Below are positions 14,760 through 14,907 of a stretch of 61,652 nucleotides of DNA, one piece after another. Each line of letters starts with the position of its first letter. Position 1 is the stretch's first letter. This stretch comes from a virus. Lineage: Duplodnaviria; Caudoviricetes. A program made the translations under genes and the position numbers. The notes under the pieces are model-generated. The model was not told where the DNA came from. It saw only the letters and a program-made list of their open reading frames with translations, and did no database searches. The DNA is taken from the IMG/VR virus record IMGVR_UViG_3300025011_000043, positions 1 through 61,652 of that record; one strand, written 5' to 3'.

Positions 14760-14846
14760 GCGGTGAGGACTGGCGGGGATTGGAACGGTGAGGTGTGGAT
14801 AGGCGAGGCAAGGATAGGAACGGTGAGGTGTGGCAAGGTAAGGGAT
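14760..14846 (+). ncRNA. Guide-like array 1: 17 GGH-NN pentamer units
   Basis: GG at every 5th position from 14762 to 14842 without exception; NN variable. Confidence 0.85.
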
Positions 14847-14907
14847 CGAAACGGTGCTTTGCACCGTCTGTCGGGATTCGTCAACCCGACACTGATGAGA
14901 TTGACGA
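14844..14907 (+). ncRNA. Type II hammerhead ribozyme with pseudoknot
   Basis: GAAA 14848, stem III ACGGTGC/GCACCGT, GUC cleavage site 14866-14868, stem I TGTCGGG/CCCGACA, CTGATGA 14892-14898, short stem II, loop TCGTCAA complementary to TTGACGA 14901-14907. Confidence 0.92.

What the first reader, a model, noticed from the sequence alone, without database searches (positions are those of the whole stretch)
14844..14907. Type II hammerhead ribozyme sits exactly between the two arrays
Seen: the full catalytic core in type II order: C-GAAA, stem III (7 bp, TTT loop), GUC, stem I (7 bp), CUGAUGA-G, short stem II, and a 7-bp pseudoknot (TCGTCAA with TTGACGA). Established: such cores self-cleave after the NUH triplet, here after C14868. 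Inference: it replaces Cas6, cutting the precursor into two guides, each left with a terminal hairpin.
Basis: partly seen in the sequence, partly recalled or inferred. Interest (0 to 1): 0.92.

Follow-up and report, generated by a model that had tools for sequence, protein, structure and literature searches.

The report
Hammerhead ribozyme splitting VIPR guide RNAs
A self-cutting hammerhead RNA sits between two five-letter-repeat guide RNAs of a phage's CRISPR-like VIPR system and most likely cuts them apart, an arrangement a 2026 preprint has already reported for related systems.

Summary
Window 14844-14909 (+) is a complete type II hammerhead. Rfam RF02276 scores it 36.3 bits (cut-off 37; E 6.8e-6). 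Core, 7-bp stems I and III, 3-bp stem II, 7-bp pseudoknot and the cut after C14868 are as described.

Seventeen such hammerheads lie in 8 of 78 sources searched. They always follow the HNH gene and abut the arrays. Covariation is strong: 92.9% of cells paired, 18 of 21 pairs changed on both sides, slid controls 45% or less.

The flanks are two arrays of 17 and 21 GG-H-NN pentamers. Upstream lie a 208-aa protein with a Cas7/Csm3 fold and an HNH gene. This is a VIPR system (bioRxiv 10.64898/2026.04.26.720920), which already reports hammerhead-interspersed vrRNA arrays, confirmed by small-RNA sequencing according to its text.

Read by the published 1-nt-skip rule, both arrays match, in frame, the tape-measure gene of a sister phage that lacks the cassette: 14/21 and 12/17 dinucleotides.

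This is a new member of a known kind. Cleavage itself is untested.

The scan has noted VIPR-HNH cassettes, one with a hammerhead, on other DNA.

The parts
13368..13396 (+). Promoter-like site (TTGACA-17-TACAAT) that could drive the whole cassette
   Evidence: Consensus scan, 11 of 12 matches. It is a consensus match only and function is not shown.
13858..14484 (+). vipr: 208-aa RAMP (Cas7/Csm3-like) protein
   Evidence: phrog_4652 E 1.6e-14, no Pfam family. AF2 model with a 38-sequence alignment, pLDDT 83.5. Foldseek PDB best hit is Csm3 chain 9g9j_D, E 6e-10, with 6ifn_E also listed. VIA-align Z 10.8 to type VII Cas7 8yhd_A and 10.4 to Csm3 6ae2_B. 1207 homologues at E<=1e-3.
14462..14752 (+). 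HNH nuclease gene (vipr accessory gene), overlapping the end of vipr
   Evidence: Pfam PF01844 E 1.1e-6, above its cut-off. PHROG HNH families reach 7.2e-12. A homologue lies next to vipr in 76 of the 82 loci held at that point, duplicates included.
14759..14843 (+). vrRNA array 1: 17 pentamers H-NN-GG in strict 5-nt register
   Evidence: Under the 1-nt-skip rule it matches L083:3452 (inside the tape-measure gene, in frame) at 12 of 17 NN; the maximum over 1000 order shuffles is 9.
14844..14909 (+). Type II hammerhead ribozyme: stem II strand 14845-14847, GAAA 14848-14851, stem III hairpin 14851-14867, GUC 14866-14868, stem I hairpin 14869-14891, CUGAUGA 14892-14898, stem II strand 14899-14901, pseudoknot 14878-14884 with 14901-14907
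   Evidence: RF02276 36.3 bits, E 6.8e-6. Own model R1 gives 63.8 bits, but this sequence was in the seed. Covariation over 14 copies. Fold of the element alone.
14868..14869 (+). Predicted self-cleavage site (after C17 of the GUC triplet)
   Evidence: Position follows from the alignment to the Rfam consensus and the established hammerhead mechanism. It has not been tested.
14914..15018 (+). vrRNA array 2: 21 pentamers, of which units 6, 16 and 19 have degenerate GG
   Evidence: Under the 1-nt-skip rule it matches L083:2504 (codon 2 of the tape-measure gene) at 14 of 21 NN, 12 of the first 13; the maximum over 1000 shuffles is 10.
15023..15057 (+). Terminator-like hairpin plus U-run that would close the transcript and give vrRNA 2 its 3' hairpin
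   Evidence: The 12-13-bp hairpin appears in the MFE and centroid folds of 14753-15060. The terminator scan does NOT list it.
15081..15143 (+). The resident tape-measure allele at the site that array 2 spells: a partial match only
   Evidence: 9 of 21 NN and 27 of 42 bases. It is the best 1-nt-skip hit of array 2 in the whole window; 7 of 300 order shuffles reach 27 bases.

Best explanation
The element is an active type II hammerhead ribozyme built into the guide-RNA region of a phage-borne VIPR system (vipr RAMP gene, HNH accessory gene, two vrRNA arrays).

Inferred transcript: it runs from the cassette promoter, or from the phage late operon, through vipr, HNH, array 1, the ribozyme and array 2 to the terminator.

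Inferred cleavage: the ribozyme folds with stems I and III held parallel by the pseudoknot between loop I and the 3' tail. It cuts itself after C14868.

The 5' product carries array 1 and ends in the stem III hairpin with a 2',3'-cyclic phosphate. The 3' product starts with a 5'-OH at U14869. It carries the stem I hairpin and pseudoknot strand as a roughly 45-nt leader, then array 2 and the terminator hairpin.

Each array is then coated by one Vipr protomer per pentamer. It reads double-stranded DNA two bases in every three. This mechanism is taken from the SUSP1 and P. fulva work, not shown here.

Shown here: the sequence anatomy, covariation of all four helices, the fixed position of the ribozyme next to arrays in relatives, the RAMP fold, the HNH domain, and in-frame 1-nt-skip matches of both arrays to the tape-measure gene of a sister phage.

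Inferred: cleavage itself, the ends of the RNAs, loading by Vipr, and what the HNH protein does at the target.
For: Ribozyme. All invariant core positions are present. Rfam RF02276 aligns end to end at 36.3 bits, E 6.8e-6.

I picked fourteen copies from 8 loci with a regular expression that demanded only the core motifs and their spacing, not the stems. MAFFT aligned them without any structure. On that alignment 92.9% of 294 cells form pairs, against a shuffled mean of 69.2% (0 of 500 shuffles as high). 18 of 21 pairs change on both sides. Sliding the 3' partners by 1-3 columns drops pairing to 26.9-44.9%. The pseudoknot helix covaries in 4 of its 5 pairs.

A covariance model built from these copies found 17 strong hits (E<=7.8e-9) in 461,772 bases of 78 sources. 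All are on the vipr strand. Three of them (L051 3890-3959, 4031-4099, 4157-4225; 63.8-78 bits) were not in the seed. Every hit lies directly after the HNH stop codon or between arrays.

Perreault et al. 2011 (PMC3088659, passages) report that most type II hammerheads have exactly this loop I / 3'-tail pseudoknot. They show that it is needed for fast cleavage, and that stem II can be as short as 2 bp.

System. The RAMP fold is supported, and the HNH domain. Arrays with 5-nt GG period lie on the vipr strand in 68 of 79 family loci (116 arrays), against 9 loci (11 arrays) on the other strand.

Guides. Only skip = 1 gives outliers on L083. Array 2 scores 14 of 21 NN at codon 2 of the tape-measure gene, and array 1 scores 12 of 17 NN at codon 318, both in frame. 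With skips of 0, 2 or 3 the best scores are 6-8.

Literature. The VIPR preprint states that hammerhead ribozyme-interspersed arrays exist (fig. S19, examples from types I and V). It says they were confirmed by sRNA-seq (fig. S20).
Against: No experiment or RNA data bear on this locus.

The Rfam score is 0.7 bit below the curated cut-off.

Only 8 of 78 sources carry the ribozyme. It is therefore dispensable for the family: most relatives separate arrays by other structured spacers.

In the window and L003 no ribozyme precedes array 1. One cut therefore cannot by itself release guide 1 from the vipr-HNH mRNA. No sigma-70-like promoter was listed between the HNH gene and array 1.

In the 308-nt context the minimum-energy fold does not keep the exact hammerhead pairing. 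That program cannot model the pseudoknot.

The base after GG is A in 10 of 33 units here, against about 8% A in the family. The SUSP1 Vipr pocket is reported to exclude purines there. So the published binding details may not transfer one to one.

Stem II shares U14901 with the pseudoknot.
Confidence: 0.8

Rival explanations
1. The ribozyme mainly serves the messenger, not the guides. It severs the vipr-HNH mRNA, together with array 1, from the downstream RNA. That would set mRNA stability or stoichiometry, and the separation of the guides would be a by-product.
For: In 6 relatives (L009, L051, L054, L068, L070, L077) a ribozyme lies 0-13 nt after the HNH stop codon, which is the mRNA/array boundary. 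L070 and L077 have one ribozyme and one array, so there it can only separate mRNA from guide. Perreault 2011 proposed that prophage hammerheads process long transcripts into gene-length mRNAs.
Against: In the window the ribozyme is not at the mRNA/array boundary. It lies between two arrays, and L003 is arranged the same way. L051 alternates 7 ribozymes with arrays far from any coding sequence.
Confidence: 0.1
2. The ribozyme halves are needed as handles after cutting. The 3' fragment (stem I hairpin plus pseudoknot strand) and the 5' fragment (stem III hairpin) would cap or nucleate the Vipr filament, as the 3' pseudoknot tail does in SUSP1 vrRNA. On this view the ribozyme is more than a cutter. 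Where ribozymes flank an array, the excised RNA could even be ligated into a circle.
For: The published vrRNAs have a repeat tract followed by a structured 3' tail. In the SUSP1 clade that tail includes a pseudoknot, and subunits near it are the best ordered. Here both arrays are followed within 5-8 nt by a hairpin: stem III for array 1 and the terminator for array 2. After cleavage, loop I and the pseudoknot strand both stay on the 3' fragment.
Against: The two window guides share no ribozyme-derived handle. Guide 1 has only the 5' half of the ribozyme at its 3' end, and guide 2 has only the 3' half at its 5' end. 70 of 78 sources have no ribozyme at all. Nothing here tests circularisation, and Perreault 2011 could not detect circular or spliced products.
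Confidence: 0.07
3. The element is an inactive relic or a chance look-alike with no present function.
For: The score lies below the Rfam gathering cut-off. The same family search 'rings' below the cut-off in 6 of 14 control genomes. There is no RNA evidence.
Against: All core nucleotides are intact. L003 has a Vipr 87% identical but keeps the ribozyme with different stem sequences that still pair, GUU in place of GUC, and a different pseudoknot that still pairs. Chance hits elsewhere in the window score only 11.7-15.4 bits.
Confidence: 0.03

Closest known systems
Hammerhead ribozyme-interspersed vrRNA arrays of VIPR systems (bioRxiv 10.64898/2026.04.26.720920, June 2026; Results and figure legends read, figures and data files not seen)
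   Same: A lone RAMP protein (Vipr), an accessory DNA-acting gene, and arrays of GG-pyrimidine/NN pentamers read with a 1-nt skip. Hammerheads are drawn between adjacent vrRNAs with an inferred cut site. The systems are phage-borne and the targets lie in rival phages.
   Different: The paper's ribozyme examples are said to come from types I and V. I cannot tell which type this HNH-linked clade is. Here the third repeat base is H (A in 10 of 33 units) rather than Y. The arrays have 17 and 21 units against the 9-16 reported. The window has a single ribozyme, with none ahead of the first array. The targets are the tape-measure gene next to the cassette.
Type II hammerhead ribozymes with a loop I / 3'-tail pseudoknot (Perreault et al. 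2011, PMC3088659; Rfam RF02276)
   Same: The permuted topology (stems I and III capped, stem II open and very short), the full catalytic core, a pseudoknot directly after stem II, and frequent occurrence in prophages and phages.
   Different: This copy scores 0.7 bit under the Rfam cut-off. Its partners are guide-RNA arrays, not protein-coding genes.
Cas6 (and Cas5d, Cas12a, Cas13) processing of CRISPR pre-crRNA
   Same: A long precursor is cut at fixed sites between guides. The products keep a hairpin handle and carry a 2',3'-cyclic phosphate and a 5'-OH, the same chemistry. (This part rests on established knowledge and was recalled, not taken from a call.)
   Different: The cutter here is the RNA itself. 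No Cas6 homologue and no CRISPR repeat is present, and the handle sequences are parts of the ribozyme.
Type II VIPR of Escherichia phage SUSP1 and the P. fulva prophage (the experimentally studied systems)
   Same: Vipr with RAMP fold, one protomer per pentamer, the 1-nt-skip code, and a structured 3' tail after the repeats. The window's Vipr finds Felixounavirus proteins by tblastn (26% identity, E 1e-4), and one such locus (phage HY02) has a 12-unit array downstream.
   Different: Those systems have a DNA-binding accessory protein and act by repression. Their vrRNAs are not separated by ribozymes. I did not examine SUSP1 itself.

Membership tests
Hammerhead ribozyme, type II (Rfam RF02276) | Conserved catalytic core: CUGAUGA, GAAA, A15.1-U16.1 pair, cleavage triplet NUH | tested here: met
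   CUGAUGA is 14892-14898, GAAA is 14848-14851, the A14851-U14867 pair is present, and GUC is 14866-14868. In the 14 aligned copies GAAAC and CUGA.GA are invariant apart from position 7 of the core.
Hammerhead ribozyme, type II (Rfam RF02276) | Three helices around the core, stems I and III closed by loops, stem II open (the type II permutation) | tested here: met
   Full-length alignment to the model, positions 1-66 of 66. The fold of the element alone shows it. Cells paired: helix I 98.0%, helix III 95.2%, helix II 90.5%, with double changes in 7 of 7, 4 of 6 and 3 of 3 pairs.
Hammerhead ribozyme, type II (Rfam RF02276) | Pseudoknot between loop I and the nucleotides just 3' of stem II (present in most type II members, per PMC3088659) | tested here: met
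   7 bp in the window (14878-14884 with 14901-14907). In the alignment 84.3% of cells pair and 4 of 5 pairs change on both sides.
Hammerhead ribozyme, type II (Rfam RF02276) | Score at or above Rfam's gathering cut-off (37 bits) | tested here: not met
   36.3 bits in the window and 35.8 in L003. The window is not listed at gathering threshold. The miss is 0.7 bit, and the E-value is still 6.8e-6.
Hammerhead ribozyme, type II (Rfam RF02276) | Mg-dependent self-cleavage after H17 | not testable with these tools
   No RNA data set holds the stretch. This needs in vitro transcription.
VIPR system (Vipr + vrRNA + vap) | Vipr protein: minimal RAMP fold with RRM core, glycine-rich loop and thumb | tested here: met
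   Model pLDDT 83.5. Foldseek finds Csm3/Cas7 chains at E 6e-10 to 2e-7 and TM 0.42-0.51, including 6ifn_E, the paper's own Cas7 query. VIA-align Z is 10.8/10.4 to Cas7/Csm3. The C-terminal G-rich segment has invariant G176, G180, G188, G190, R191 and F192. I did not inspect the thumb separately.
VIPR system (Vipr + vrRNA + vap) | Sequence kinship with the published Vipr set (PSI-BLAST family of UniProt X1U2U4; SUSP1, P. fulva) | tested here: inconclusive
   tblastn reaches Felixounavirus and Pseudomonas phage proteins at E 1e-4 to 9e-6 and 25-31% identity. phrog_4652 scores E 1.6e-14. The HY02 locus has an array. X1U2U4 and SUSP1 themselves were not compared, and the paper's lists are in closed supplements.
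VIPR system (Vipr + vrRNA + vap) | Tandem pentamers with a fixed GG(Y) and variable NN, at least about 9 units, beside vipr on the same strand | tested here: met
   17 and 21 units. The family-wide strand bias is 116 arrays against 11. The third base here is T 14, A 10, C 9, G 0, so GGH rather than GGY. The paper allows 'a related consensus', including NNNGG.
VIPR system (Vipr + vrRNA + vap) | Accessory (vap) gene acting on DNA | tested here: met
   HNH PF01844, conserved next to vipr in 76 of 82 loci.
VIPR system (Vipr + vrRNA + vap) | Guides match natural targets under the 1-nt-skip rule, with skip bases on codon wobble positions (the paper keeps hits with >=80% NN) | tested here: inconclusive
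   In-frame hits occur only at skip 1. Array 2 scores 14 of 21 (67%; 14 of the first 17 is 82%). Array 1 scores 12 of 17 (71%) on L083. These are far above shuffles (maxima 10 and 9 in 1000). They fall below the paper's 80% when all units are counted. A scan of IMG/VR with 9 units of array 2 found only the L083 contig and one chance hit.
VIPR system (Vipr + vrRNA + vap) | Type (I-VII) by Vipr phylogeny, array architecture and vap | not testable with these tools
   Types are defined in figures and data S4, which I could not see.
CRISPR-Cas with Cas6 processing | Direct repeats of about 23-50 bp alternating with spacers | tested here: not met
   Tandem Repeats Finder on 14000-15600 finds only a 7-nt unit x 2.1 copies. 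The periodicity is 5 nt. I did not look for cas1, cas2 or cas6 in the window.

The most novel reading that the evidence does not exclude
The ribozyme-processed guides may serve an RNA-guided homing or rival-cutting element. The roughly 2-kb cassette (promoter, vipr, HNH, array-ribozyme-array) is an insertion relative to sister phage L083, and it ends about 25 nt before the tape-measure start codon.

Guide 2 spells codons 2-18 of the tape-measure gene as the cassette-less sister carries them. Guide 1 spells a site about 950 nt further into the same gene. The resident allele is recoded, including three Leu codon-family switches.

Vipr filaments loaded with the two ribozyme-released guides would bring HNH to the sister's gene. 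Repair from the cassette-bearing genome would then copy the cassette in.

That would be a homing endonuclease whose specificity sits in an RNA cut out by its own ribozyme.
Probability: 0.25. Interest if true: 0.8.

Novelty: new member of a known kind. Interest (0 to 1): 0.35.

Why it matters
It gives an independent, sequence-only confirmation that some VIPR systems use a self-cleaving RNA in place of a Cas6-type protein to separate their guides.

It adds comparative detail that the text I could read of the preprint does not give:
- Covariation supports all four helices of this ribozyme clade.
- These copies score just under Rfam's cut-off, so routine annotation misses them.
- The ribozyme occurs in only 8 of the 78 sources searched from an HNH-linked Vipr clade. 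The five with a named organism are all Bacillota.
- There is a layout with a single internal ribozyme and no leading one.

The ribozyme's natural role is unusually clear here, which is rare for bacterial and phage hammerheads.

The neighbouring observation is that the guides are aimed at the gene beside the cassette in a sister phage that lacks it. If it holds, it would connect VIPR-HNH systems with homing endonucleases.

Tried and rejected
Rfam at gathering threshold on the whole window found nothing. The hit appears only in the E-value scan.

An Rfam E-value scan of 13300-14850, run to look for a second ribozyme ahead of array 1, found nothing at E<=0.1. Model R1 found only two weak hits elsewhere in the window (9857-9919, E 0.46; 19357-19415, E 1). 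The RF02276 hit at 4752-4786 (E 0.67, 11.7 bits) is taken as chance.

blastn of 14300-15300 against GenBank phages gave no match.

The single-sequence AlphaFold model was useless (pLDDT 35.4) and was replaced by the alignment-based model.

RNA evidence: no RNA holder is listed for the stretch. The four runs listed are DNA runs of one groundwater study. I did not use read laying because contigs of DNA runs cannot show RNA ends.

Targets:
- Array 1 has no significant hit in its own genome. Its best is 22 of 34 bases, and 107 of 300 shuffles reach that.
- The arrays of L003 found no target among the sequences held. Best scores were 9 of 20 and 8 of 16 NN.
- A scan of IMG/VR with units 5-13 of array 2 returned the L083 contig again (L084) and one contig that matches only those 9 units (L085, 9 of 21), taken as chance.
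- The search for related loci with the first 300 residues of the tape-measure protein found one relative only.

Promoter for guide 1: I looked for a sigma-70 promoter between HNH and array 1. None is listed, and by eye the spacing of the TTAGTT and TATATA boxes is too short. Rejected.

Phylogeny: the careful tree did not finish, so only the quick tree is reported. It has 73 rows. I left out the duplicates L036, L008, L033, L067, L047 and L042, and rows whose best HSP was under 150 residues. L004 was kept and is a very long branch. The hammerhead label needs 6 changes, and well-supported branches force at least 2. 14 of 500 label shuffles are as low. One origin is therefore neither shown nor excluded.

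I considered and rejected three other readings of the GG-rich flanks. A CsrA-type GGA sponge and a TRAP-type triplet platform were dropped once the strict 5-nt register, the RAMP protein and the in-frame target matches were seen. Coding sequence was also dropped. ORF 14763..15008 is open, but a 5-nt period is not a coding period.

Supplementary data of the VIPR preprint (data S3, S4; figures S17-S22) could bear on the type assignment and on whether this clade is already listed.
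Full report
WHAT IS THERE. The window is an IMG/VR virus record of 61,652 bases, estimated 83% complete. Between an HNH gene (14462-14752) and the tape-measure gene (15078-17423; PHROG tail-length families) lies a 325-base non-coding stretch.

- GAAA at 14848-14851
- a 7-bp stem III with a UUU loop
- GUC at 14866-14868
- a 7-bp stem I with a 9-nt loop
- CUGAUGA at 14892-14898
- a 3-bp stem II (14899-14901 with 14845-14847)
- a 7-bp pseudoknot between loop I (14878-14884) and the nucleotides right after stem II (14901-14907)

Rfam's default scan reports nothing. The reason is that the Hammerhead_II model RF02276 scores 36.3 bits against a cut-off of 37. In an E-value scan of 14700-15100 it is by far the best hit, E 6.8e-6, aligned over all 66 model positions. 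A single-family search of the whole record gives E 2.5e-7. Folded alone, the element forms stems III and I in the minimum-energy structure.

IS IT MORE THAN CHANCE? The best evidence is comparative. The 208-aa protein encoded at 13858-14484 has 1207 homologues at E<=1e-3. With an alignment of 38 of them I fetched 40 viral loci and 38 loci from bacterial genomes.

I then searched with a regular expression that asked only for the core motifs and their spacing. It picked 14 candidate hammerheads in 8 loci, next to the arrays described below. MAFFT aligned them without any structural input.

On that alignment the four helices pair in 92.9% of 294 cells. The shuffled mean is 69.2%, and 0 of 500 shuffles reach the observed value. 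18 of 21 pairs show changes on both sides. Sliding the 3' partners by 1-3 columns gives only 26.9-44.9% paired. The pseudoknot covaries in 4 of its 5 pairs.

The nearest relative, L003, has a Vipr 87% identical. Its ribozyme has different stem I and stem III sequences that still pair, GUU instead of GUC, and a different but still complementary pseudoknot.

A covariance model built from the 14 copies was run over 461,772 bases of 78 sources. It gave 17 hits with E<=7.8e-9 in 8 sources, all on the vipr strand. Three of them, in L051, had not been in the seed. The five hammerhead-bearing loci that carry an organism title are all Bacillota: Marinithermofilum, Paenibacillus, Metabacillus, Bacillus and a Bacillota MAG. 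On a quick Vipr tree the ribozyme-bearing loci are scattered but mildly clustered.

THE SURROUNDINGS. The flanks are extraordinary. GG recurs every 5 nt from 14762 to 14842 without a miss, which makes 17 units. It recurs from 14917 to 15017 with three degenerate units, which makes 21 units counted from 14914.

A paper search led to bioRxiv 10.64898/2026.04.26.720920. I read its outline, abstract, Results and two Methods sections plus passages. I did not see its figures or data files. It describes VIPR systems:
- a minimal RAMP protein (Vipr)
- an accessory gene (vap)
- vrRNAs of 9-16 YNNGG pentamers, whose NN dinucleotides read double-stranded DNA with one base skipped per unit

[quoted passage not shown] It also states that this was confirmed by sRNA sequencing (fig. 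S20).

A companion preprint (10.64898/2026.04.26.720927, passages) shows one Vipr protomer per repeat. A third (10.64898/2026.10.21.760802, passages) finds 99 VIPR-like clusters by 5-nt periodicity.

I tested the defining features on this locus.
- Protein fold: the 208-aa protein has no Pfam family and hits only phrog_4652. Its alignment-based AlphaFold model (pLDDT 83.5) matches Csm3/Cas7 chains by Foldseek, E down to 6e-10, including 6ifn_E, the Cas7 query used by the preprint. An independent aligner gives Z 10.8 to type VII Cas7 and 10.4 to Csm3.
- Accessory gene: the next gene is an HNH nuclease (PF01844). It accompanies vipr in 76 of 82 loci.
- Arrays: pentamer arrays lie on the vipr strand in 68 of 79 family loci, 116 arrays against 11 on the other strand.

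ARE THE ARRAYS GUIDES? I read the NN of each unit with skips of 0-3 bases.

In the window itself the best 1-nt-skip hit of array 2 is at 15081. That is codon 2 of the tape-measure gene just downstream. It matches 27 of 42 bases, which 7 of 300 order shuffles reach.

A search with the tape-measure N-terminus found one relative, L083, with 68% protein identity. On L083 array 2 matches codon 2 onward at 14 of 21 NN, 12 of the first 13. Array 1 matches codon 318 onward at 12 of 17 NN. Both are in frame, with the skipped base on the wobble position. Other skip lengths give at most 8, and 1000 order shuffles give at most 10 and 9.

The arrays therefore carry information about a real gene of a rival phage, in the published code. 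The match is below the preprint's 80% criterion when all units are counted. L083 is probably a relative of the true target rather than the target itself.

HOW THE RIBOZYME MOST LIKELY WORKS. In six relatives a ribozyme follows the HNH stop codon within 0-13 nt and precedes the first array. Further ribozymes separate further arrays, up to seven in L051. L070 and L077 have one ribozyme and one array. The general job is thus to cut vrRNAs away from the mRNA and from each other.

In the window a single cut after C14868 would give two products.
- Guide 1 ends, 8 nt after its last GG, in the stem III hairpin with a cyclic phosphate.
- Guide 2 begins with the stem I hairpin, which can still pair with the pseudoknot strand on the same fragment. 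It ends, 5-8 nt after its last GG, in the terminator-like hairpin (not listed).

So both guides have the 'repeat tract followed by a structured 3' tail' layout that the preprint describes. This is inference; no RNA data exist.

What defines the 5' end of guide 1 remains unexplained. The window and L003 have no leading ribozyme and no listed promoter there.

Most relatives (70 of 78 sources) have no ribozyme and use other structured spacers. The ribozyme is therefore one of several interchangeable solutions.

COMPARISON AND NOVELTY. As a ribozyme it fits the type II class with pseudoknot of Perreault et al. 2011 (passages) in every structural feature. It fails only the Rfam score cut-off, by 0.7 bit. 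As a system it fits VIPR with hammerhead-interspersed arrays.

The differences are of degree:
- an HNH-linked clade whose type I cannot assign
- GGH rather than GGY repeats
- longer arrays
- a single internal ribozyme

I file it as a new member of a known kind. The scan has met VIPR-HNH cassettes, and one hammerhead beside a VIPR array, on other DNA before. Those notes are not independent evidence.

BEYOND THE FINDING. Compared with L083, the window has about 2 kb extra between 13074 and 15078. This holds the whole cassette and ends about 25 nt before the tape-measure start. The flanks are 80-88% identical. The first 66 nt of the tape-measure gene, which is the footprint of guide 2, are too diverged for blastn to align.

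In that footprint the resident allele differs from L083 by a Leu codon-family switch at three positions (15093, 15105, 15111) where L083 matches the guide. The Ser codon at 15090 is AGT in both, so it is not a resident-specific escape.

Together with the HNH gene this suggests an RNA-guided homing or rival-cutting element. The word 'homing' does not occur in the held texts of two VIPR preprints. Guide-RNA-assisted spread is known for TnpB/IscB transposons; that statement is recalled and comes from no call. I give this reading a probability of 0.25.

Noticed in passing
window 13074-15078 compared with L083:2415-2501: The whole VIPR cassette is a roughly 2-kb insertion relative to a sister phage contig, ending about 25 nt before the tape-measure start. 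Flanks are 80-88% identical, but the first 66 nt of the tape-measure gene (the guide 2 footprint) do not align by blastn. This layout resembles that of a homing element.
   Followed up: partly
window 15081-15143 and L083:2504-2566: At three Leu codons (15093, 15105, 15111) the resident allele uses the other codon family than guide 2, while the cassette-less L083 matches the guide. Ser at 15090 is AGT in both, so that position is not a resident-specific escape.
   Followed up: partly
L051:3366-4225 (Marinithermofilum abyssi contig): Seven hammerheads alternate with seven short pentamer arrays after the HNH gene. Several units are near-duplicates of each other, which suggests recent unit duplication.
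   Followed up: partly
window 14834-14843 and 15009-15018; 3' ends of arrays in L015, L017, L019, L020, L022, L028, L060, L072: The last two pentamers of many arrays are similar (CAAGG/TAAGG-type) whatever the rest of the guide says. This may be a fixed 3' element rather than guide information.
   Followed up: no
L003:4221-4535 compared with window 13098-13409: In L003 the segment homologous to the DNA upstream of the window's cassette (reverse ORF 13079..13321 and the promoter region) lies downstream of the arrays. The module order is permuted between the two phages.
   Followed up: no
window arrays 14762-15018: The base after GG is A in 10 of 33 units, against 105 of 1328 in the family's arrays. 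The SUSP1 Vipr pocket is reported to exclude purines at this position.
   Followed up: partly
window 14763-15008 (+): An 81-codon frame starting with GTG stays open right through array 1, the ribozyme and array 2. I take it as a by-product of the G-rich, stop-poor composition and did not test it.
   Followed up: no
window 12113-12813: A tail-protein ORF (phrog_2115) is followed by an ORF with a Phage_tail_T domain (PF06223, E 2.4e-10). This is the usual tail chaperone pair ahead of a tape-measure gene, here separated from it by the cassette.
   Followed up: no
proteins P0027 and P0050: Two different Vipr homologues are reported from one 282,826-base Anaerolineae contig, so some genomes carry more than one system.
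   Followed up: no
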